Below, piece by piece: positions 642-24,955 of a stretch of DNA of 39,041 nucleotides (positions within the stretch are counted from its first letter, which is position 1; every line of letters begins with the position of its first letter). The notes beneath the pieces were generated by a model. The model had not been told where the DNA came from. It did no database searches and worked only from the letters and a program-made list of their open reading frames with translations. Origin of the DNA: a virus (taxonomy: Duplodnaviria > Caudoviricetes); IMG/VR virus record IMGVR_UViG_3300016476_000446, positions 1 through 39,041 of that record; one strand, 5' to 3'. The translations under genes were made by a program, and so were the position numbers.

Positions 642-1085
642 ATGAAAATCGAGTATCGCAAGGGCAACCTATTTGAAACTGATATTCTGCATATTGCACA
701 TGGTTGCAATGCGCAGGGAGTTATGGGTTCCGGTGTTGCACGGATTGTTAAAGAACAGTATTTTGATGCATTTAAATTTTATGCAGAGCAATACGACGAG
801 CATGGTCTCAAACTGGGCGATGTGCAATTTGTTCCCGTAAATGGAAAAGTTATCGTTAATGCCGTTACGCAAAACCTCTATGGCAAAGACGGTAAACGTT
901 TTGTTAATTATGAGGCAGTTGCTGAATGTATGAGGACTATCAACAACGTTCTTAAACAGAGTGGAGAAACGCATGTTGCTATGCCGCAAATCGGTGCAGG
1001 ACTGGGTGGCGGTAGCTGGGCAGTTATTGAGGCTATCATTGAAAGTGAAATGACTGACATTCAGCCTGTGGTTTACGTGTTGTGA
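642..1085 (+). CDS. Macrodomain (ADP-ribose processing) protein
   Basis: YRKGNLF, HGCNAQGVMGSGVA and MPQIGAGLGGGSW motifs. Confidence 0.9.
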   Translation: MKIEYRKGNLFETDILHIAHGCNAQGVMGSGVARIVKEQYFDAFKFYAEQYDEHGLKLGDVQFVPVNGKVIVNAVTQNLYGKDGKRFVNYEAVAECMRTINNVLKQSGETHVAMPQIGAGLGGGSWAVIEAIIESEMTDIQPVVYVL

Positions 1086-1474: not shown

Positions 1475-1550
1475 GCCTTCGTAGCTCAACTGGAAGAGCA
1501 AGGGATTTCTACTCCCTAGGTTGTGGGTTCGACTCCTGCCGGGGGCGCCA
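1475..1550 (+). tRNA. tRNA-Arg (anticodon UCU)
   Basis: GCCTTCG/CGGGGGC acceptor, GCTC/GAGC D-stem, AGGGA-TT TCT AC-TCCCT anticodon arm, TTCGA T-loop, encoded CCA. Confidence 0.95.
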
Positions 1551-5310: not shown

Positions 5311-5655
5311 ATGAAACAAATTATTGTAATGCGGAAAGATCTCAAGATGCCCCGCGGTAAGGAAATTGCCCAAGGTGCTCACGCGAGTATGAAAGCCACG
5401 TTGCTACACCAGGAAGACCCAAGGGTTAAAGAATGGTTGAGTGGAAAGTTCACCAAAATTGCAGTTGGGGTTAACAGTGAAGAGGAGTTGCTGGATGTTT
5501 ACAACAAGGCCCGCGCCGCAGGGCTCATCGCAGAGCTTGTCACGGATGCTGGGCTTACTGTGTTTAACGGCGTACCCACGAACACCTGCATTGCTGTAGG
5601 CCCTGACACGCACGAGATCTTGCAACCAATAACTGGTGACCTTAAATTGCTCTAA
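5311..5655 (+). CDS. pth2: Peptidyl-tRNA hydrolase, Pth2 type
   Basis: KQIIVMRKDLKMPRGKEIAQGAHAS, KIAV, DAGLT, TCIAVGP and ITGDLKLL motifs. Confidence 0.93.
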   Translation: MKQIIVMRKDLKMPRGKEIAQGAHASMKATLLHQEDPRVKEWLSGKFTKIAVGVNSEEELLDVYNKARAAGLIAELVTDAGLTVFNGVPTNTCIAVGPDTHEILQPITGDLKLL

Positions 5656-5656
5656 C

Positions 5657-5902
5657 ATGATATTGGTACCATTTAGATTTGACCCAATTGACTGCCATAA
5701 CCGAGATACGGTTATGATGGCCCTTAATGATTTATGTCATATGGATTGGTTGCATTATTTAAAGAGTCACGCAACCAAAATAGAATTTATAGATCCCCAT
5801 TATTTGGCGGCGGTGCATATGTATGAAGTGATTTTCAAGTTTCACCTTGACCCGAAACACGAAACATATTATAATATAAAATATAGTAGAGAAGGATATT
5901 AA
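5657..5902 (+). CDS. Hypothetical protein, possible degenerate LRW-family member
   Basis: C-terminus FKFHLDPKHETYYNIKYS. Confidence 0.65.
   Translation: MILVPFRFDPIDCHNRDTVMMALNDLCHMDWLHYLKSHATKIEFIDPHYLAAVHMYEVIFKFHLDPKHETYYNIKYSREGY
5847..5875 (+). promoter_or_regulatory. Sigma70-type promoter inside a gene end
   Basis: TTGACC-17 nt-TATAAT. Confidence 0.6.
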
Positions 5903-6135: not shown

Positions 6136-6284
6136 CAGTTAAAGAACTAATTGAAACTTTGCAGAAGTTTCCTCAAAATGATATTGTGTACTATGAAGGT
6201 GGAGATTATGCCGACGATTGGCGGCCTGTACACAAAGTTTCCAACTTGAATTCATGGGGATCTAGGGGTATTCTTTTAGAATGA
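6132..6284 (+). CDS. Small phage protein, MTVKELI family
   Basis: N-terminus similar to 13192..13449. Confidence 0.65.
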   Translation: MTVKELIETLQKFPQNDIVYYEGGDYADDWRPVHKVSNLNSWGSRGILLE

Positions 6285-6496
6285 CTCCGGCTCAGATACG
6301 ACGCAAATGGGCAAGCATAGACCGTCGTGAAGAAAAACTTGCACATGAACTTGCCAAATTACAAGCACTGTGTACACACCCAAATGTCACAAAAAAGTAT
6401 GACAGCAATACTGGAAATTACGATCCCAGTGCAGATAGTTACTGGATTGACTTTCATTGTCCAGATTGTAGAAAACGCTGGAGGACCGATCAATGA
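6281..6496 (+). CDS. Small Zn-ribbon-like protein
   Basis: CTHP ... CPDCRKRW. Confidence 0.7.
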   Translation: MTPAQIRRKWASIDRREEKLAHELAKLQALCTHPNVTKKYDSNTGNYDPSADSYWIDFHCPDCRKRWRTDQ

Positions 6497-7166: not shown

Positions 7167-7241
7167 GCCTCTGTAGCTCAGCGGAAGAGTACTGGTCTTC
7201 GAAACCAAGGGTCGGGAGTTCGAATCTCTCCAGGGGCACCA
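7167..7241 (+). tRNA. tRNA-Arg (anticodon UCG)
   Basis: GCCTCTG/CAGGGGC acceptor, TGGT-CT TCG AA-ACCA anticodon arm, TTCGAAT T-loop, encoded CCA. Confidence 0.92.
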
Positions 7242-7250
7242 TAAATTTAC

Positions 7251-7303
7251 TTGATAATACCTGCAAGTTCTGCTATGTTGTATGTAGCAAAATTGCAGGT
7301 ATT
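7251..7303 (+). promoter_or_regulatory. Sigma70-type promoter within an inverted repeat covering the downstream RBS
   Basis: TTGATA-17-TATGTT; AATACCTGCAA (7256) / TTGCAGGTATT (7293). Confidence 0.6.
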
Positions 7304-7306
7304 TTT

Positions 7307-7672
7307 ATGAGCAAGGTACAACAACTTATCGCTAAGGCGCTCTCTACTAATAGTGAAGAGGAAGCCTTTACATGTTTACGAATGGCTCGTAAACAATCTG
7401 ACAAAACTTTTACTATGGCTGAGCCCAAGCAACCCACTCCACAGAATACGTTCAGAGAGATTCATCTAGAACAACAACTAACAGTCCTTAACCGGATGTA
7501 TAAAGATGCACACACTCGGGCTGGATATTTCATGGACGAGATGACCAAAGCCAAAATTGAGAAAAATAAACTTGCTTCACAAGTTAGGTCTCTTAATGAA
7601 ACTGTGTCTTTGTATAAATTCGCATTGGCTATCGCTGCCATCAGTGCGGTTGTGTTGGCTATCTTGATCTAA
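7307..7672 (+). CDS. DUF2786-like N-terminus, coiled coil and C-terminal TM anchor
   Basis: KVQQLIAKALSTNSEEEA; hydrophobic tail. Confidence 0.65.
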   Translation: MSKVQQLIAKALSTNSEEEAFTCLRMARKQSDKTFTMAEPKQPTPQNTFREIHLEQQLTVLNRMYKDAHTRAGYFMDEMTKAKIEKNKLASQVRSLNETVSLYKFALAIAAISAVVLAILI

Positions 7673-8085
7673 TGAACGTACTCGGTGTTTTAAAATACAA
7701 GTTTCTAGAATGGAAGTATGACCGTATACTCAAACGTAGCGGTCATACTAGCTGGGAACGATATTTTCGAGCCAACGACCCGGATTTTTTCATTCGTGGT
7801 CAAACAATAAAAGAAATGTTCGCTGGTTACCCATACGTAGCACGGGTTGACTATAAACACCTTGAATACACCGTTGATGGCATGTGGGGCGAAATATGGA
7901 ACGGTGACAACGTTTTAAACTGGTGCAACACTAATTGTCGTGGTAAACATCGTTGGCAGTGGGAACGTGTAATTACTGATCACATGGGGCAATATGCACC
8001 AGATGGTATAGCTGGCAGTGATGAACTGTTTTTTGGTTTCAAAGACGAACGTGATTATTTTTTGTTTATACTGAGGTGGTCATGA
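7672..8085 (+). CDS. LRW-domain family protein 1
   Basis: VLNWCNTNC...FGFKDERDYFLFILRWS. Confidence 0.8.
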   Translation: MNVLGVLKYKFLEWKYDRILKRSGHTSWERYFRANDPDFFIRGQTIKEMFAGYPYVARVDYKHLEYTVDGMWGEIWNGDNVLNWCNTNCRGKHRWQWERVITDHMGQYAPDGIAGSDELFFGFKDERDYFLFILRWS

Positions 8086-8357
8086 TACTTGATTATAGAG
8101 AGTTCGATGAAAAGATCGAACAACATTATTACAATATGATTCTTGAACAAAATATAGCGTATCTTAAAGAACATGGTGTGGGACCATATCACTATGACGG
8201 AAAGTTTGCTAATCGTGTAGAACCCTACTTCGATGCTGGGTATTGGATGCAATATTACAAATGGCTCGAGGCTGAGTACCGTGTGGTTTGTAATAATTAC
8301 AAACTTGTATTTCTATCTGATAAAGACGCATTATTATTCATTTTGAGGTGGTCATGA
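8082..8357 (+). CDS. LRW-domain family protein 2
   Basis: YYKWLEAE...VFLSDKDALLFILRWS; ATGA overlap. Confidence 0.8.
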   Translation: MILDYREFDEKIEQHYYNMILEQNIAYLKEHGVGPYHYDGKFANRVEPYFDAGYWMQYYKWLEAEYRVVCNNYKLVFLSDKDALLFILRWS

Positions 8358-8539
8358 TAAGATGCAACATTACAGACGGTGATGACAGGGTTGACAAAAT
8401 CAAATATGATTGGATTAAACAAAACCTACCCAATGAAGTTTACTGTATAAGAGACACGGGGTTTTTTATTAGTGATTACGTGGTGGAGTTTAAAGACGAA
8501 AAATATGCAACCCTCTATCTGTTACGATTTTCAAAATGA
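8354..8539 (+). CDS. LRW-domain family protein 3
   Basis: YDWIKQNL...VEFKDEKYATLYLLRFSK. Confidence 0.8.
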   Translation: MIRCNITDGDDRVDKIKYDWIKQNLPNEVYCIRDTGFFISDYVVEFKDEKYATLYLLRFSK

Positions 8540-8709
8540 GTTGGATACTTGTTCCCAAAAGAGATAGAAGACACTATGACGGGTTTATTAGGTGGCTTAA
8601 TGAAAATGCAGGGCACTACGAATTTGATGAAAAAGATGGTTACCAATACATTAAAATTAGCGACCCAAAACTCGAAACATTGGCTGTATTAAGATGGCAA
8701 TTATATTAG
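8536..8709 (+). CDS. LRW-domain family protein 4 (57 aa, missed by the ORF track)
   Basis: MSWILVPKRDRRHYDGFIRWLNENAGHYEFDEKDGYQYIKISDPKLETLAVLRWQLY; ATGA overlap. Confidence 0.75.
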   Translation: MSWILVPKRDRRHYDGFIRWLNENAGHYEFDEKDGYQYIKISDPKLETLAVLRWQLY

Positions 8710-8927
8710 AAACTGAGTTGTTAGACAAGGTTTTTCACAAATGGCGGTATTCTAAATTGGATCACTCACGCTATCCTATGAGATACGTTCGTAATCACCG
8801 AGATCAGCGATTTGAAAGTTGGCTTTGGGATCAGGGTTTTACAGTCATCCAACAAAACAAAAAACGCTATTTAAAATTTGACGGTGACGAACGCCGACTA
8901 ACACTATTTTTATTAAAGTGGACATGA
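8694..8927 (+). CDS. LRW-domain family protein 5
   Basis: FESWLWDQG...LKFDGDERRLTLFLLKWT. Confidence 0.8.
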   Translation: MAIILETELLDKVFHKWRYSKLDHSRYPMRYVRNHRDQRFESWLWDQGFTVIQQNKKRYLKFDGDERRLTLFLLKWT

Positions 8928-9181
8928 TGCAAGAATGGGTAGATTTGAAAACTGTTCAATGGGCTTATGCTCATTCGCAGAAGTATCAATCTCCAGAATT
9001 CCCAAAAGGACACGCTGGTATTGAAAATGCATTTGGGTTTAAAGTAGTTACTGACCTTTCTGGCAGTGTTACTAGGTATTACTCATCTACTCGAAAATTT
9101 TATACAGATGAGGATAGACAAATATTAGTTGACTTTAAAGACGAAAAGTGCTTAACTATGTTTCTACTAAGGTGGTCATAA
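8924..9181 (+). CDS. LRW-domain family protein 6
   Basis: VDFKDEKCLTMFLLRWS. Confidence 0.8.
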   Translation: MMQEWVDLKTVQWAYAHSQKYQSPEFPKGHAGIENAFGFKVVTDLSGSVTRYYSSTRKFYTDEDRQILVDFKDEKCLTMFLLRWS

Positions 9182-9411
9182 TGAAAAAATGGGATAATAG
9201 AAAAGACACTCTTTGGTTGTTGACCGAAGAAGAACTTGACGAATTGCCTGATGGCTCTAGACTATTGTCTATTAACAATGACATTGTTCCAAAGACTGCG
9301 GACCTTGACAGAGATACAAGGTTTGGTGTATTGGCTTATGGGCTTACTGAAACCCTTGCAAAACAGCAAGGCCTCGAAGATAAATTTCTTATCTGGATGA
9401 TGAAATCATGA
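9181..9411 (+). CDS. Hypothetical protein
   Basis: TAATG coupling to the upstream LRW gene; DRDTRFGVLAYG segment. Confidence 0.7.
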   Translation: MKKWDNRKDTLWLLTEEELDELPDGSRLLSINNDIVPKTADLDRDTRFGVLAYGLTETLAKQQGLEDKFLIWMMKS

Positions 9412-9629
9412 CACTGTACAACACCACGCAACCTATTTTTCTTCCATGCAACGCTCTTGCAATTTTTGATGTTCCTAGCGAAATGGGATATCGATGCACG
9501 ACATGTTTTGCAATGGTGGGAAGTGTGGGGCAATCCGACCACTGCAAAGCCGAAGCTGAAAAATGGAAAACTATTGAAGCAATGGGCGGGAAAGGATGGG
9601 ATTATAGACTGGGGCAACAAAAAGCATGA
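9408..9629 (+). CDS. Small Cys-containing (Zn-binding?) protein
   Basis: LPCN...YRCTTCFAMVGS...HC. Confidence 0.7.
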   Translation: MTLYNTTQPIFLPCNALAIFDVPSEMGYRCTTCFAMVGSVGQSDHCKAEAEKWKTIEAMGGKGWDYRLGQQKA

Positions 9630-10105
9630 CTGAGTTATATGATCAATCTCGAGCTGCGAGTGTGACTGCAACCGCACAGGTGTTGTTGCCAATAATTCGA
9701 AGAACGTTGCCTACTATAATTGCTAACGATCTTATCGGTGTACAACCCATGACGGGAGCGTTTGCTGGTATATTCAGCGGGTCTAATGGTCGTAGTACAT
9801 TTCAACAGCAAGGCCGAATATTGCGCAATGGTTACCCTGGTAGGATTAACATGGAAAAAATTCATTATCAACACTTTCTTAAAGTATATAATCGCCGCAC
9901 CCGGCATCATCCAGAATATCTTACAGGTCTTGGATATCAGAAAATTAGACTCACGCGCCGTGACGACGTTGCACACAATGCAAACAATGCATTATCTTGG
10001 TGTAAGAAAACTCTAAAACCTGGAAGCTATGTTTACAGTAGTGGCGACTTTTGGTTTGCATATGACCGTGATGCAATGCTTTTTAGTTTGAGATGGGGAT
10101 CATGA
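9626..10105 (+). CDS. LRW-domain family protein 7 with N-terminal gp23 (Gol-region) fragment
   Basis: VLLPIIRRTLPTIIANDLIGVQPMTG at aa 19-44; C-terminus ALSWCKKTL...FWFAYDRDAMLFSLRWGS. Confidence 0.8.
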   Translation: MTELYDQSRAASVTATAQVLLPIIRRTLPTIIANDLIGVQPMTGAFAGIFSGSNGRSTFQQQGRILRNGYPGRINMEKIHYQHFLKVYNRRTRHHPEYLTGLGYQKIRLTRRDDVAHNANNALSWCKKTLKPGSYVYSSGDFWFAYDRDAMLFSLRWGS

Positions 10106-10305
10106 GAGATACAGTTAGAGTAAGATTTATTAAAACTGCTATGGTACACGGCAGAGACGTAAGCTGGGCTGAATATAATTGGAATTCTGATGAAAGCTAC
10201 TGGTACTGCATTGATGGTAAGAGTTCAGAAGGATTCTTTAGAATAAATCCAGAATTTACCAGGATGATGGACGACAGCCATATGACATTTCATTCACTAA
10301 AGTAA
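10102..10305 (+). CDS. Hypothetical protein
   Basis: ATGA overlap. Confidence 0.65.
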   Translation: MRDTVRVRFIKTAMVHGRDVSWAEYNWNSDESYWYCIDGKSSEGFFRINPEFTRMMDDSHMTFHSLK

Positions 10306-10309
10306 CATT

Positions 10310-10528
10310 ATGTTTTTCAAAGTTCTTATAAAAGACACTGGCACCTATCCAGACTATCGAGATGAATTTCTCGATATAGAAAATTGGGCTGAAGACCATT
10401 GCTCCAGTTATGTGTATATGAAAATAACAGACGTAGCTGACGTTACTATGGAATACGATGCTATTGCTGAGTATCATTTTAGAGAAGAACGTGATGTCAC
10501 GTTATTCACGCTGAGGTGGAGTAGATGA
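10310..10528 (+). CDS. LRW-domain family protein 8
   Basis: IENWAEDHC...YHFREERDVTLFTLRWSR. Confidence 0.8.
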   Translation: MFFKVLIKDTGTYPDYRDEFLDIENWAEDHCSSYVYMKITDVADVTMEYDAIAEYHFREERDVTLFTLRWSR

Positions 10529-10875
10529 AACCCTTTAACATAAAAAAAGAAATAGTTACAGCAAAATCACGAACTCTGAAAGCAACTTGGACTGTTGAAA
10601 AGGCACAAGATATTAGCTCTGTGATAGATGACAATCTAGCCAAAATTCTGCAAGAAGAAATAGACAGAGAAGTTTTAAATCAGATAAACTGGGAATTTAT
10701 TAAATCTAAAAATTGGATTGAAGTTAAAATCCCTGCATATTCTGATAAAATCCCCGTTTGGTGTGAGAGTAATCTCAAACACGACTATAAAGAATTTGAT
10801 AAGGTTTATTGGTATTTTGAATCTGAGCAAGATGCTACAATGTTTACACTAAGGTGGAGTTCAAAGTATGAGTGA
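10525..10875 (+). CDS. LRW-domain family protein 9 with N-terminal gp23 (strand plus spine-helix) fragment
   Basis: FNIKKEIVTAKSRTLKATWTVEKAQD...LAKILQEEIDREVL; C-terminus PVWCESNL...WYFESEQDATMFTLRWSS. Confidence 0.8.
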   Translation: MKPFNIKKEIVTAKSRTLKATWTVEKAQDISSVIDDNLAKILQEEIDREVLNQINWEFIKSKNWIEVKIPAYSDKIPVWCESNLKHDYKEFDKVYWYFESEQDATMFTLRWSSKYE

Positions 10876-13450: not shown

Positions 13451-13714
13451 ATGCGCTGGCAAGTTTACGTTCACAATCCATCAAAACGGGCAGCATTAGT
13501 TGAAAATCTGTTAAAGTGTGATTTTGAAGTTTACCTATGGCGCAATTCAAATAGGGTTACATTTGAAGGCACACCTGCTCGTATAACTATGTTTTTGTTG
13601 AAACATACTATAGATGGAATGCTCTACAAACACAACTTTCCAAATCCAGCAGAGTCGGATCTGTCTTATAGAATTTCAAAATTATCCAAATCATTAGAAA
13701 TTGATTATAAGTAG
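13451..13714 (+). CDS. Hypothetical protein with internal LRW-like motif
   Basis: VTFEGTPARITMFLLKH. Confidence 0.6.
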   Translation: MRWQVYVHNPSKRAALVENLLKCDFEVYLWRNSNRVTFEGTPARITMFLLKHTIDGMLYKHNFPNPAESDLSYRISKLSKSLEIDYK

Positions 13715-13717
13715 GGT

Positions 13718-14503
13718 ATGAAAAAGATAATAGCTGGGCCATGCCAACATGAAAGTTTTGAACAATCATTAGAAATTGCATTAACATGCAAAGAAGTTTG
13801 TGATCAATACGGTTTTGAATATTATTTTAAAGCAAGTTTTGACAAAGCAAACCGCACAAGTGCTGAAAGCCAACGTGGTGTTGGATTTCAAAAGACTATG
13901 GAAGATTTTGGTAAGTTAAAAGATCGTATTCCAGATTTAAAAATATTGACTGATGTGCATACTGTTCCACAAGTCATGATGATCAAGGATTTATACGCAG
14001 ACGAAGTTGACGTAATACAAATTCCTGCATTTTTGTGCAGACAGACTGACCTTGTAGTAGCTGCTTGCAAATCTGGAAAGATCGTTAACATAAAAAAAGG
14101 GCAGTTTCTTGCTCCATGGGACGTGGATGGGGTGTTATCAAAAACAACCTCCGCAAAAGAAGTTTGGATAACTGAAAGGGGAACTAGTTTTGGTTACAAT
14201 ACTCTTGTGGTCGACTTTACTGGTATGCAGTATATTTTGGATAATTGGTGCAATGATCTTGTTTTCGATGCGACACACTCTGTTCAGCGTCCTGGGGGTC
14301 TGGGGAACTCGAGTGGGGGTAATCGCTCCTATGTTCCTGGTCTTTGTCGGGCTGCTAGTGCAATGGGTGTTAATAATTTCTTTATAGAAGTTCACCCAGA
14401 TCCTGACAATGCACCGAGTGATGGCCCAAATACTTTAAAATTATCTGATTTTGAAAATCTAGTATATGAAATCCACCGCTATTCTTATTCCAGCCAGGTA
14501 TAA
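13718..14503 (+). CDS. kdsA: 3-deoxy-D-manno-octulosonate 8-phosphate (KDO8P) synthase
   Basis: IIAGPC, KASFDKANRTS, QIPAFLCRQTDL, NIKKGQF, TERG, FDATHSVQ and EVHPDPDNAPSDG motifs. Confidence 0.97.
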   Translation: MKKIIAGPCQHESFEQSLEIALTCKEVCDQYGFEYYFKASFDKANRTSAESQRGVGFQKTMEDFGKLKDRIPDLKILTDVHTVPQVMMIKDLYADEVDVIQIPAFLCRQTDLVVAACKSGKIVNIKKGQFLAPWDVDGVLSKTTSAKEVWITERGTSFGYNTLVVDFTGMQYILDNWCNDLVFDATHSVQRPGGLGNSSGGNRSYVPGLCRAASAMGVNNFFIEVHPDPDNAPSDGPNTLKLSDFENLVYEIHRYSYSSQV

Positions 14504-15167
14504 CTCATCCAGATTTCCAGGCAAGCCGTTGGCTATTATGGATGGCGATCCATTAATAGTTAGAACCGTAAAGCAGTGTTTGAAAACAGGACTTCCGGTA
14601 TACGTATTAACTGATGATTACAGAATTGAAAGTGCTGTAAGTTCATATACAACTGTATATCTTGATGAAACACGCAAGCCAGATAATGGTACTGAACGGT
14701 GTGCAAATGCTATTCAAACCCATATGTTTGACAAGTATGATAAATTTGTCAACGTTCAGGGAGATATGCCAGATATCACTCCAGAGATTGTGTTTTCAGT
14801 TATAAAGTGTTTGGAAGACTATTCGGTGTCTACTGCAAACACACACATGCCTGCAAAATACCGTGACGATCCAAACACAGTTAAGTTGGTACGCAGCAAC
14901 CGTGAATGTCTTTGGTTCGGAAGAGGAATGGTGGGTTATGGTGAATGGCACTTAGGGGTATACGGTTATTCACGTAGTGCATTGGAAGCATACCCACGTT
15001 TGGGGTTTTCTATTGAAGAAGAAGTCGAAAAATTGGAGCAACTTAGGTGGTTGAAAAATGGCTATAAAATTGGATGCGCTTATGTTGAGTTTAAGGGTGT
15101 AGAAATCAATACACCAGAAGATATTGAGAAATGGTATGAAGTCAGGAAAAGTTTGGGGAACCACTGA
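14466..15167 (+). CDS. kdsB: CMP-KDO synthetase
   Basis: IPARYNSSRFPGKPLA, GTER, VNVQGD, HLGVYGY and EKLEQLRWL motifs. Confidence 0.95.
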   Translation: MKSTAILIPARYNSSRFPGKPLAIMDGDPLIVRTVKQCLKTGLPVYVLTDDYRIESAVSSYTTVYLDETRKPDNGTERCANAIQTHMFDKYDKFVNVQGDMPDITPEIVFSVIKCLEDYSVSTANTHMPAKYRDDPNTVKLVRSNRECLWFGRGMVGYGEWHLGVYGYSRSALEAYPRLGFSIEEEVEKLEQLRWLKNGYKIGCAYVEFKGVEINTPEDIEKWYEVRKSLGNH

Positions 15168-22489: not shown

Positions 22490-22963
22490 ATGGTAAAAAA
22501 ATACGTTAGTACAAAAGAATACAAAGAAATTGGACCCGTTGCTTATCGCCAATGGCGAGCAGATAGTCATTGTAACTTAATACATGGGTATGCATTAAGC
22601 TTTAAATTTGAATTTGAAACAGACAACTTAGATGCCCGTAACTGGGCCATGGACTACGGTGGTCTAAAACCACTCAAGGCATTGTTAGAAGAATGGTTTG
22701 ATCATACACTGTTGGTTGCAGTAGACGACCCAAAGCGTGATGAACTAATGAAACTAGGCACTCTTGGGTTAGCAAAAATAACAGAAGTTGAAAAAACTGG
22801 TTGTGAAGGTATTGCAGACTTTCTTTATGAATACATCAATACTATTTTCTTAAAAGATTATGGTGAAGCTGACCGACTTTGGTGTAGCAGAGTTGAAGTT
22901 CGCGAAACTGGAGCCAACATGGCATATCGTCAAGGACATCGTGAAGACGGTGAGTTTAAATAA
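22490..22963 (+). CDS. queD: 6-carboxytetrahydropterin synthase (QueD/PTPS family)
   Basis: HCNLIHGY, MDYGGLK, FDHTLL, GCEGIA and VEVRET motifs. Confidence 0.9.
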   Translation: MVKKYVSTKEYKEIGPVAYRQWRADSHCNLIHGYALSFKFEFETDNLDARNWAMDYGGLKPLKALLEEWFDHTLLVAVDDPKRDELMKLGTLGLAKITEVEKTGCEGIADFLYEYINTIFLKDYGEADRLWCSRVEVRETGANMAYRQGHREDGEFK

Positions 22964-23714: not shown

Positions 23715-23933
23715 ATGACACCCAAGCAGAAACGAACTGAAATCAAACGTATACTATCTAAATTAGAGGATGATAATCGCATGATATTTAAACGCATGTA
23801 TTCTCACAACAATTTGGATAAAGACATCAACTTAGTAGTTGACGCAATGCCTGCTAAAAAATTAGACTGGGCACTGCAACAGTGTAAGAATACATATTAT
23901 AGAATATTCAAAATTTTGGCAGGCAAGGAATGA
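23715..23933 (+). CDS. Hypothetical protein
   Basis: FKRMYS...KLDWALQQ segment. Confidence 0.7.
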   Translation: MTPKQKRTEIKRILSKLEDDNRMIFKRMYSHNNLDKDINLVVDAMPAKKLDWALQQCKNTYYRIFKILAGKE

Positions 23934-24955
23934 ATACAACTAAAAAGCGCATCGGGTTTGCTTGCAAGTACATGCATCACGATCAGACTCTTTCAGCAAA
24001 ACTGTTGGAGGAGAAACAACGACTTCTTACAGAAAAGTCCACAACTCTTGCTTGGCTCAACCGTCAAAAGAAGTCAGTTGCTGAGGATAAACTGTGGGAA
24101 ATCATGCAGCACAACACTCGTGCAGCATACAATCTTGTAAAATATGTTGGGAGTTTACCTAATGAGTTACGTATGGTACGTCTCGGTTCAAATCAGCTGC
24201 CTGTTTATACTGAGCCATCTTGGAGTTATTTTTGGCGCCAAACGGATGTTATTAACTATGCCGCTAGAGAGTATAGTAAAGTGGGTGACCTTGCACGTAG
24301 CCTTGATGTTCGCATGTCTATGCACCCTGGTCAGTTTACCGTTCTTGCTAGTGATAATCCAGATATTGTAAGCCGTAGTATCGAAGAGTTTGAATACCAT
24401 TGTGACTTGATTCGTTGGATGGGTTTCGGCAAAATCTGGCAAGATTTCAAATGCAACGTTCATATCAGTGGTAGACAAGGACCGCAGGGTATTATTGATG
24501 TTCTACCCAAACTTAGCCCCGAAGCCAGAAATGTAATTACTATTGAGAATGATGAAAACAGCTGGGGGTTGGACGCTAGTCTTGAACTCGAGAAGCATGT
24601 TGCATTGGTCCTCGACATTCATCATCATTGGTGTAAAACTGGTGAATACATCGAGTCAAATGATGATCGAGTCAAGCGTGTAGTAGACAGCTGGCGTGGT
24701 CATCGTCCAGTTATCCATTACAGTGTGAGTCGAGAAGATTGCCTAGTTGACCATGACAAAAACATCAGGCCCGACTTTGCGGATCTACTCACAAACGGTC
24801 ACAAAAAGGCCAAACTTAGAGCACACAGTGACTATTACTGGAACACTGCTGTAAATGAATGGGCATTAAGCTTCTGGGATATTGCTGACATCATGTGTGA
24901 AGCAAAGATGAAGAATCTTGCCAGCATCGAGTTGTATGAACATGCAGTTCGATGA
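23930..24955 (+). CDS. uvsE: UV damage endonuclease
   Basis: RIGFACK, RMSMHPGQF, NVHISG, TIENDE, LDIHHH, HYS, RAHSD and MCEAKMK motifs. Confidence 0.95.
   Translation: MNTTKKRIGFACKYMHHDQTLSAKLLEEKQRLLTEKSTTLAWLNRQKKSVAEDKLWEIMQHNTRAAYNLVKYVGSLPNELRMVRLGSNQLPVYTEPSWSYFWRQTDVINYAAREYSKVGDLARSLDVRMSMHPGQFTVLASDNPDIVSRSIEEFEYHCDLIRWMGFGKIWQDFKCNVHISGRQGPQGIIDVLPKLSPEARNVITIENDENSWGLDASLELEKHVALVLDIHHHWCKTGEYIESNDDRVKRVVDSWRGHRPVIHYSVSREDCLVDHDKNIRPDFADLLTNGHKKAKLRAHSDYYWNTAVNEWALSFWDIADIMCEAKMKNLASIELYEHAVR

What the first reader, a model, noticed from the sequence alone, without database searches (positions are those of the whole stretch)
7672..10875. Tandem array of at least 9 modular paralogues: variable N-terminal cargo on a shared C-terminal LRW domain
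Seen: nine of 12 consecutive ORFs end in the same motif: FKDERDYFLFILRWS, FLSDKDALLFILRWS, FKDEKYATLYLLRFSK, ISDPKLETLAVLRWQ (57-aa ORF 8536..8709, missed by the track), FDGDERRLTLFLLKWT, FKDEKCLTMFLLRWS, FAYDRDAMLFSLRWGS, FREERDVTLFTLRWSR and FESEQDATMFTLRWSS. Most also have an upstream W in a short helix (NWCNTN, KWLEAE, DWIKQN, RWLNEN, SWLWDQ, SWCKKT, NWAEDH, VWCESN). The rest is unalignable by eye (57-159 aa), and two N-termini are capsid-protein fragments. Inference: a roughly 45-60 aa scaffold or oligomerisation domain carrying a diversified library of cargo peptides, expressed early as one coupled operon from the promoter at 7251. This could be a modular anti-defence or host-interaction system. 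I cannot name a characterised family for it.
Basis: partly seen in the sequence, partly recalled or inferred. Interest (0 to 1): 0.88.

Follow-up and report, generated by a model that had tools for sequence, protein, structure and literature searches.

The report
Chained phage mini-genes carrying capsid pieces
A giant freshwater phage carries nine chained copies of a tiny unnamed protein domain whose shared ending likely also starts the next gene and marks where a whole gene is missing in close strains, and two copies carry long-conserved pieces of the capsid protein that may act as bait for host proteins that detect new capsid.

Summary
Confirmed: 9 of 12 coupled ORFs (7672-10875) end in one ~55-residue domain (predicted beta-alpha-beta-beta-alpha). 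It has 12,613 hits among 50%-identity cluster representatives, and no credible Pfam, PHROG, NCBIfam or PDB family. The tail is dual-coded: Arg is AGG in 64 of 101 LRW tails (86 of 1,001 elsewhere), and the next ATG sits at fixed offsets. Contigs from two studies lack exactly one gene, tail to tail (254 nt). 'Cargo' is overstated: about half the members are little more than the domain, and most N-termini travel with their domain. The exception is real. 9626 carries the gp23 Gol-equivalent segment and 10525 a second conserved gp23 segment. Both fusions recur widely. The Gol piece is more conserved than its carrier (67% vs 49%) with saturated synonymous sites, and N-termini are occasionally swapped. 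Best reading: early accessory cassettes, the capsid pieces likely baiting host capsid-recognising proteins; function untested, oligomerisation unsupported. The scan noted LRW arrays and a capsid fusion on other DNA before.

The parts
7167..7241 (+). tRNA-Arg(TCG) just upstream of the array promoter
   Evidence: ARAGORN; tRNA-like genes also precede the array promoter in relative G001 (by eye)
7251..7279 (+). Likely sigma-70-type early promoter with extended -10 (TTGATA-17-TATGTT)
   Evidence: 4 motif sites vs 0.25 expected; motif enriched in G001 (22 vs 1-4) and G006 (12 vs 0-5); syntenic site upstream of the G001 array
7307..7672 (+). First gene of the operon, 121 aa, hydrophobic C-terminus, not an LRW member
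   Evidence: TAATG overlap to 7672
7672..8085 (+). LRW member 1, 137 aa, conserved subfamily with its own N-terminal extension; tail AGG TGG
   Evidence: E 1e-10; full-length orthologues 54-64%
8082..8357 (+). LRW member 2, 91 aa; tail AGG TGG
   Evidence: E 1.7e-7; no orthologue outside the twin locus
8354..8539 (+). LRW member 3, 61 aa, bare domain, ends LRF with no SD-like codons
   Evidence: E 4.6e-8; G001 orthologue 40%; codons
8536..8709 (+). LRW member 4, 57 aa, bare domain; the A-TGG of its tail is the ATG of 8694
   Evidence: weak profile score 9.4 bits; junction
8694..8927 (+). LRW member 5, 77 aa, divergent (LKW)
   Evidence: 12.6 bits; orthologues 41-55%
8924..9181 (+). LRW member 6, ~85 aa (start 8924 or 8927); the gene absent tail-to-tail in close strains (8923-9176 skipped)
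   Evidence: E 1.4e-5; joint 8922->9177 in runs X8 and X9; 254 nt equals the TGG-to-TGG distance
9181..9411 (+). Non-LRW passenger gene, 76 aa
   Evidence: not scored by the profile; orthologues 38-55%
9408..9629 (+). Non-LRW passenger with a CxxC-like motif, 73 aa; directly upstream of the Gol fusion in the window, G001, L004 and L015
   Evidence: orthologues 63-74%
9626..10105 (+). LRW member 7, 159 aa: gp23 Gol-equivalent peptide (residues 19-50 = T4 gp23 94-125), variable linker, conserved middle motif, LRW domain
10102..10305 (+). 67-aa gene, possibly a degenerate member (its G001 orthologue ends in a tail-like helix)
   Evidence: not scored by the profile; orthologue; by eye only
10310..10528 (+). 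LRW member 8, 72 aa, bare domain; tail AGG TGG
   Evidence: E 1.2e-9; orthologues 37-50%; Atlas model pTM 0.64
10525..10875 (+). LRW member 9, 116 aa: second gp23 segment (residues 4-56 = T4 gp23 252-312, strand plus long helix), then LRW domain

Best explanation
The region is a row of chained mini-genes built on one small, predicted-to-fold domain, whose Leu-Arg-Trp ending likely doubles as the next gene's ribosome site or start and as a crossover point for gaining and losing whole genes, and two members carry conserved capsid-protein pieces that likely act early in infection as bait for host proteins that recognise newly made capsid. Step 1 (shown): nine paralogues with overlapping frames; the tail is conserved as protein and as DNA. 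Step 2 (pattern shown, mechanism inferred): exchange between tails removes or adds one gene and keeps the coupling; close strains lack exactly one gene in register, and gene order is permuted among relatives. Step 3 (pattern shown): new N-termini are occasionally captured; two gp23 segments were captured long ago and are held by protein-level selection. Step 4 (inferred): the operon is transcribed early from a host-type promoter, before capsid synthesis. Step 5 (inferred, least certain): the domain is a stable carrier, and the capsid pieces occupy host factors that bind nascent gp23-type capsid, such as EF-Tu with a Lit-type protease or another peptide-level sensor, without triggering them. 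The bare members likely bind other host targets through their variable surfaces.
For: Family and fold. Dual coding: AGG in 64 of 101 LRW Arg codons vs 86 of 1,001 other Arg codons in the same genes, and a downstream ATG at -1, +5 or +8 from the TGG in 128 of 191 tails (genes are related, so not independent). Precise one-gene absence in contigs of two studies, one contig 11.3 kb long. Permuted order of orthologues across the window, G001, L004, L013, L010 and L005. The Gol fusion has 29 relatives at 39-63% identity, 28 of them covering over 80% of the query. Mean pairwise identity is 67% for the Gol piece, 32% for the linker and 49% for the domain. Synonymous sites are saturated (pS 0.71) with pN/pS 0.32 in the fragment vs 0.52 in the domain. 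The fragments are no closer in codons to their own capsid gene than to others', so recent gene conversion is not the cause. The conserved block spans T4 gp23 94-125. Gol, a 29-residue gp23 region, binds EF-Tu and activates Lit (PMC3014915, passage read; residue numbers 94-122 recalled). Three of four small ORFs with a capsid piece in G001 and G006 are LRW genes, though LRW genes are 39 of 4,100 ORFs. Several sensor families detect capsid protein, one with EF-Tu (10.64898/2026.01.04.697583, abstract and passages). Promoter motif.
Against: No experiment; host unknown. Gol activates Lit, so an early Gol copy could be harmful unless it is non-activating. Avs7 recognises the folded capsid by broad shape, mostly the A-domain, and staphylococcal Thoeris has a results section on sensing the hexamer (PMC11312562, outline only); a 30-residue peptide is a poor mimic for such sensors. 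Only 2 of 9 members here carry a capsid piece, and the other seven have no assigned partner. An unbiased test found no excess of non-capsid N-termini matching conserved parts of core genes (2 of 84 hits vs 10 of 317 shuffled). The Gol piece lies upstream of the second piece in 10 of 10 loci holding both, the order in the capsid gene, as a relic of one old capsid duplicate would predict. Only one deletion type was seen, in 2 of 8 runs laid, and its direction (loss or gain) is unknown.
Confidence: 0.42

Rival explanations
1. The LRW domain is itself the working host-binding module, diversified by duplication. The capsid pieces are remnants of one old capsid-gene duplicate split by LRW cassettes, kept only as translation-start or stabilising leaders.
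For: Several members are bare domains (87 of 246 are 80 aa or shorter). The first piece precedes the second in 10 of 10 loci. The second piece is often eroded to its helix, and the first is degenerate in G006 (11 of 26 identical).
Against: The Gol piece is more conserved than its carrier and than the adjacent linker despite saturated synonymous sites. It keeps capsid-specific residues (R, P, A, G, V-Q-P-M) that a generic leader would not need. It sits on at least three scaffold clusters.
Confidence: 0.2
2. The Gol fusion works like Gol itself: it binds EF-Tu-GDP to slow or redirect host translation during takeover, and is no immune bait.
For: Gol binds EF-Tu domains II-III and inhibits its GTPase, and the region is the most conserved part of gp23. 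The window also encodes a PTH2 peptidyl-tRNA hydrolase and two tRNAs.
Against: Does not explain the second capsid piece or the bare members; EF-Tu is very abundant (6-10% of the E. coli proteome).
Confidence: 0.12
3. The capsid pieces act on capsid assembly: they hitchhike into the phage's own prohead for delivery, or poison the assembly of competing gp23-type phages as dominant-negative fragments.
For: Both pieces are conserved cores of the gp23 fold, 55-63% identical to their own capsid protein for the first piece in G001 and G002.
Against: The genes lie about 160 kb from the head module in G001, behind a host-type promoter. A poison would also hit the phage's own near-identical motif.
Confidence: 0.12
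4. One reading: the domain is an oligomerisation scaffold that assembles all members into one complex displaying a freely shuffled cargo library.
For: Shared fold, one operon, some real swaps (L044 vs L043: 83% identical domain, different N-terminus; P0042: second capsid piece on the Gol-fusion scaffold). Some relatives have two domains in one chain.
Against: Several members have no cargo. N-termini mostly track their domain (92 of 108). Copy number runs from 8 to 39 matches per complete genome, in several arrays.
Confidence: 0.09
5. The array is a selfish or neutral by-product: the tail is kept only as DNA (coupling and recombination site), and the proteins do little.
For: Strong DNA-level signal at the tail.
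Against: Upstream W, F, D and F positions are conserved in 74-91% of members. 8354 keeps L-R-F with non-SD codons. pN/pS is below 1, and 29 synonymous vs 18 non-synonymous codon changes were seen among listed strain variants (partial list).
Confidence: 0.05

Closest known systems
PeSL cassettes in hyperplastic regions of T4-type phages (Arbiol et al. 2010, PMC2839356; abstract and outline read)
   Same: Non-essential small genes behind sigma-70-like promoters; recombination between short repeated elements inserts, deletes and reorders genes.
   Different: Here the repeated element lies inside the protein-coding tail of a paralogous domain and also supplies the coupling signal. No promoter or terminator stem-loop lies between the genes.
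Gol region of T4 gp23 with EF-Tu and the e14 Lit protease (PMC3014915, passage read)
   Same: 9626 residues 19-50 align to T4 gp23 94-125 and keep R, R, P, I, A, G, V, Q, P, M.
   Different: Gol is part of the full capsid protein and triggers defence. Here it is a detached copy on a separate, likely early mini-protein; EF-Tu binding and Lit activation are untested.
DSAD1 against DSR2 (PMC10981675, abstract read)
   Same: A small phage protein that blocks a sensor of a virion structural protein.
   Different: DSAD1 inhibits allosterically. No sequence link to DSAD1 was sought or seen, and no sensor is known for these proteins.
Capsid-sensing systems Avs7, Avs8, Avs10 (10.64898/2026.01.04.697583), CapRel (PMC9712102, listing only), staphylococcal Thoeris (PMC11312562, abstract)
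   Same: They supply the selective pressure that a capsid-piece bait would answer; Avs7 uses EF-Tu.
   Different: Avs7 reads the folded capsid surface rather than a short peptide; none is shown to bind these fragments.
Integron cassette arrays (recalled; listing PMC8876359 only)
   Same: Single-gene units behind one promoter, gained, lost and reordered.
   Different: No integrase or attC-like site was seen in the window; the junction is a coding microhomology of under 20 nt.

Membership tests
PeSL cassette array | Promoter plus terminator stem-loop repeated between genes | tested here: not met
   Genes overlap by 1-16 nt or are 4 nt apart; the phage promoter motif has one site before the array and none inside it; the only array repeat with three copies is the 29-nt tail
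PeSL cassette array | Gene indels bounded by the repeated element | tested here: met
   254-nt tail-to-tail skip in runs X8 and X9
PeSL cassette array | Excised mini-circles | tested here: inconclusive
   No backward joint in 8 runs of assembled contigs, which drop rare forms
Gol peptide (Gol/Lit/EF-Tu) | Homology to the Gol region of T4 gp23 | tested here: met
   Ungapped match to T4 gp23 94-125; Gol numbering 94-122 is recalled, the passage read gives only '29-residue region'
Gol peptide (Gol/Lit/EF-Tu) | Binds EF-Tu-GDP and activates Lit | not testable with these tools
   Needs pull-down and cleavage assay; the 13 critical residues (Copeland and Kleanthous 2005) were not read
gp23 major capsid protein | Full HK97-fold chain of about 400 residues | tested here: not met
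   Only 36 and about 52 residues match; complete relatives G001 and G002 encode a separate full capsid gene
Ferredoxin-like / RRM / ABM / KH folds | Clear structural match | tested here: inconclusive
   Best VIA-align Z 5.1 (rmsd 3.1, 69 aligned), level with background; Foldseek PDB none at E<=0.001; Atlas ABM-like rows TM 0.6-0.7, under its naming bar
Any curated protein family | Profile hit over cut-off for the domain | tested here: not met
   0 of 123 members in PHROGs at E<=0.001; 1 of 123 weak Pfam hit (DUF6275, E 0.002); no PDB sequence at E<=1; no NCBIfam hit near its cut-off and no PADLOC hit for the nine window members
Integron | Integrase and attC sites | tested here: inconclusive
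   No integrase among window ORFs scanned, but the window is a 39-kb fragment and inverted repeats were not searched
Anti-defence protein | Rescues phage from a defence system | not testable with these tools
   Needs plating assays

The most novel reading that the evidence does not exclude
Jumbo T4-like phages run a self-chaining display library. An abundant small domain captures short conserved motifs of the phage's own essential proteins (two capsid segments firmly; possibly helicase/terminase Walker A, the ribonucleotide reductase catalytic motif and a third capsid motif) and expresses them early as decoys that saturate host pattern-recognition sensors, with tail-to-tail recombination refreshing the set.
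Probability: 0.2. Interest if true: 0.92.

Novelty: new variant of a known kind. Interest (0 to 1): 0.68.

Why it matters
The domain is one of the larger unnamed phage families (12,613 hits among 50%-identity representatives, some false) and occurs at 8-39 matches per complete jumbo genome. Its tail appears to serve three jobs at once: last helix, translation signal for the next gene, and crossover site. That is a compact way for lytic phages to remodel accessory genes. Capsid proteins are major immune triggers that phages cannot easily change. [quoted passage not shown]

Tried and rejected
Complex prediction of the two capsid fusions (9626 with 10525, each with its alignment) gave no answer: score 0.00, mark 0.32, controls not run. 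Homo-oligomers and EF-Tu binding were not modelled (one job only). Fold searches gave no named family; absence is not exclusion. BFVD returned mostly uncharacterised proteins of uncultured phages, and two Agrobacterium phage Atu_ph07 proteins at E 0.29 and 0.55. Single-protein and nine-sequence searches reached little. No Gol-fusion relative was found in one scan of 185,579 prokaryote genomes (word-based, that subfamily only). Cultured phages gave no hit for 7672 and only capsid-gene hits among the 40 rows shown for 9626. Other cargo donors: Walker-A-like motifs occur in 7 of 375 extensions (about 4 lineages; shuffles 0.01-0.03; 2 of 2,475 other small ORFs), an RNR-like NLCxEI motif in 2 N-termini plus 1 chance hit, and YAP and TNxGSGY motifs in 3 and 2. 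These patterns were chosen after seeing them. PHROGs gave no terminase or helicase hit on them, and the unbiased conserved-target test was flat, so they are leads only. Extra window paralogues 5636, 9181, 10102 and 13451 were not scored by the profile. DmsA hits on 8694 and HEC-08 on 9408 are weak and treated as chance. P0063 (1,176 aa helicase) is a false positive of the family search, so 12,613 is approximate. Joints with sides of 21-26 nt were dismissed as tails of other phages. RNA run X20 has three short contigs on the stretch, which cannot show expression or timing. No tree was built; scaffold groups are BLAST clusters. Nine paper searches and passages of the jumbo-phage survey PMC7824862 showed no description of this family or of capsid-fragment fusions. 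The library lacks most subscription papers, and no supplements were read (those of PMC7824862 could list such families).


Full report
Setting. The window is a 39,041-nt virus record and is all that is held of this genome. It encodes tail-fibre, baseplate, ligase, MazG and GroES-like genes. Its genes near the array match a complete 381,886-nt phage record, G001, at 38-94%, and G001 has a gp23-type capsid gene. Seventeen runs hold half or more of the array's words; they are freshwater, aquatic, wastewater and estuary metagenomes. It is therefore inferred to be a fragment of a T4-related jumbo phage. The host is unknown; KdsA and KdsB-like genes suggest a Gram-negative one.

Observation. The nine C-termini are there, in 9 of 12 consecutive, almost all overlapping ORFs. 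A profile from 245 non-window relatives ranks them 1st-9th of 305 window ORFs. Seven are strong; 8694 and 8536 are near the shuffle ceiling. The shared unit is about 55 residues with conserved W, W/Y, F, D, F, L and W. AlphaFold models of 9626 and 10525 agree on strand-helix-strand-strand-helix, with the LRW in the last helix. Ten-residue mean pLDDT is 86-97 over 9626 residues 71-159 and 79-93 over 10525 residues 31-110, while the Gol-bearing N-terminus scores 43-56. No curated family or solved sequence matches, and fold searches give only background-level alpha/beta sandwiches. The profile hits 12,613 of 1.84 billion cluster representatives at E<=0.001, including at least one clear false positive. 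It gives 8, 39 and 30 matches in three complete jumbo records. Among 246 members from fetched loci the domain is always C-terminal and the median length is about 86 aa.

The tail is dual-coded. In 191 of 241 tails that could be read, Arg before Trp is AGG in 64 of 101 cases, against 86 of 1,001 other Arg codons in the same genes. The next open frame starts at -1 (the A-TGG forms the ATG; 51 cases), +5 (57) or +8 (20) from the Trp codon. AGG TGG in this context gives GAGGTG or AAGGTG, a Shine-Dalgarno-like word (established knowledge of the 16S 3' end). In the window five tails are AGG TGG, two AGA TGG, one AAG TGG and one CGA TTT. The last case and the upstream conserved residues show that the protein is selected too.

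The array changes by whole genes. Seven of the nine members have orthologues in the fetched loci or the protein searches. Their order differs: the 7672 type precedes the Gol fusion here and in L004 and L013 but follows it in G001, and the 8694 type precedes it here and in G001 but follows it in L004. Of 8 runs laid, contigs in two (different studies; one contig 11.3 kb, otherwise about 98% identical) join 8922 to 9177. The 254 skipped bases equal the distance between the Trp codons of the 8694 and 8924 tails, so one gene is absent and the stop-start overlap is kept. Whether this is loss or gain is not known. The site at 7251 fits a motif found 4 times in the window (0.25 expected; pattern partly post hoc) and 22 and 12 times in G001 and G006 (shuffles 1-4 and 0-5), and G001 has such a site before its array. 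Early expression is inferred from this only.

Cargo. The general cargo idea is weaker than proposed. 8354, 8536 and 10310 are essentially bare, and for 92 of 108 testable members the nearest domain shares the N-terminal cluster; 7 differ and 9 partners lack an extension (inflated by one merged cluster). But swaps exist. L044 and L043 share an 83% identical domain under different N-termini, and P0042 has the second capsid piece on the Gol-fusion scaffold. The 44-member scaffold cluster of 9626 holds 36 Gol-type, 4 Walker-A-like, 1 second-type and 3 unlabelled N-termini, and the Gol piece also sits on two other clusters. Against 426 large proteins of related phages, 69 of 375 extensions hit the capsid protein and 1 hit anything else (5 of 1,125 shuffles hit). 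This pool is enriched because fusions were my queries. Fifteen of the best 150 representatives hit the capsid PHROG at E<=0.05, also biased upward because the profile included part of the capsid helix.

The capsid pieces are selected. 9626 residues 19-50 align without gaps to T4 gp23 94-125, and 10525 residues 4-56 align to 252-312. Gol is a 29-residue gp23 region that binds EF-Tu-GDP and lets Lit cleave it, and it is the most conserved part of gp23 (PMC3014915, passage; numbering recalled). Across 29 fusions the piece is 67% identical pairwise, against 32% for the linker, 58% for the middle motif and 49% for the domain. In 12 loci with DNA, synonymous sites are saturated and pN/pS is 0.32 for the piece and 0.52 for the domain. 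For 10 second-type fusions it is 0.46 and 0.40 for the capsid strand and helix and 0.55 for the domain (saturated, so only rough). In three complete genomes the fragment is no closer in codon choice to its own capsid gene than to the others. Both pieces occur together in 10 distinct loci, always in capsid order, but each also occurs alone. One non-LRW small gene in G006 also carries a Gol-like piece.

Mechanism. Shown: family, tail coding bias, in-register gene absence, recurrent and conserved capsid fusions, occasional N-terminal swaps. Inferred: coupling, tail-to-tail recombination, early expression, carrier role. Least certain: the bait role. Capsid protein is a common trigger, with three Avs families sensing it and Avs7 using EF-Tu (10.64898/2026.01.04.697583, abstract and passages), so there is pressure for such a bait. 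Against it, Avs7 reads a broad folded surface, Gol activates Lit, and seven members have no recognisable cargo. I put the architecture at about 0.85 and the full reading including the bait role at about 0.42. The rivals are a domain-as-binder model with relic leaders, EF-Tu-directed takeover, action on capsid assembly, an oligomeric scaffold, and neutrality.

Novelty. It works like PeSL-mediated shuffling (PMC2839356, abstract) but fails membership, since the repeated element is coding and no promoter-terminator lies between genes. The domain and the capsid fusions were not found in nine paper searches, within the limits given. Earlier scan notes on other genomes report LRW arrays with the dual-coded tail and one Gol-like fusion. 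I reached the coupling and Gol ideas before reading the respective notes and tested them here; the PeSL comparison came from those notes. Added here: the in-register natural deletion in this phage's own strains, the second capsid piece and its pairing with the first, the selection and gene-conversion tests, and documented swaps. Verdict: real, undescribed, a new variant of a known kind; interest 0.68.

Noticed in passing
window 13718-15167: Adjacent KdsA (Kdo-8-phosphate synthase, over the NCBIfam cut-off) and KdsB-like CMP-Kdo synthetase genes: a phage-borne LPS core sugar pathway; KdsA is 74-79% identical in relatives.
   Followed up: partly
window 5311-5655: PTH2-type peptidyl-tRNA hydrolase, 92% identical to G001's while neighbours are 38-59%; 6281-6496 is 94% identical. 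This suggests recent exchange.
   Followed up: no
window 1475-1550 and 7167-7241: Two tRNA-Arg genes (TCT, TCG); the TCT one could help read the AGA/AGG codons used in the tails.
   Followed up: no
L086:11469-11810 (G006): LRW member whose N-terminus has 10 of 12 residues identical to the catalytic motif of the same phage's ribonucleotide reductase, followed by a YAP motif like the capsid C-terminal one; L043:6591 has a similar RNR-like motif. E 0.01 only.
   Followed up: partly
L006:9845, L007:9878, L008:9968, L022:521, L034:8470, P0116, P0129: Walker-A-like motifs at LRW N-termini, resembling the phage helicase or terminase P-loop; 7 of 375 vs about 0.02 in shuffles, no donor confirmed.
   Followed up: partly
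L076:13507-13854 (G006): A Gol-like capsid piece on a small non-LRW gene, so capture of this segment is not limited to the LRW carrier.
   Followed up: no
window 5636-5902, 9181-9411, 10102-10305, 13451-13714: Tail-like helices by eye, possibly degenerate members; not scored by the profile.
   Followed up: partly
window 9408-9629: Small CxxC-type gene that lies directly upstream of the Gol fusion in the window, G001, L004 and L015 (63-74% identical) and may work with it.
   Followed up: no
window 2579, 7251, 11961, 37985: Phage-wide promoter-like motif TTGAY-N15-TGYTA-N3-T, also enriched in G001 and G006.
   Followed up: partly
L009:362-763: The near-identical twin locus has a frameshift in the 7672 orthologue at a T run that removes its LRW tail; may be an assembly error.
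   Followed up: no
window 9889-9958: Dense cluster of strain differences inside 9626 (12 listed within 70 nt, mostly synonymous), suggesting an exchanged patch.
   Followed up: no
window 642-1085, 22490-22963, 23930-24955: Likely macro-domain protein (PHROG 'phosphatase'; macro label by eye), QueD-like synthase and UvsE-like UV-repair endonuclease.
   Followed up: no
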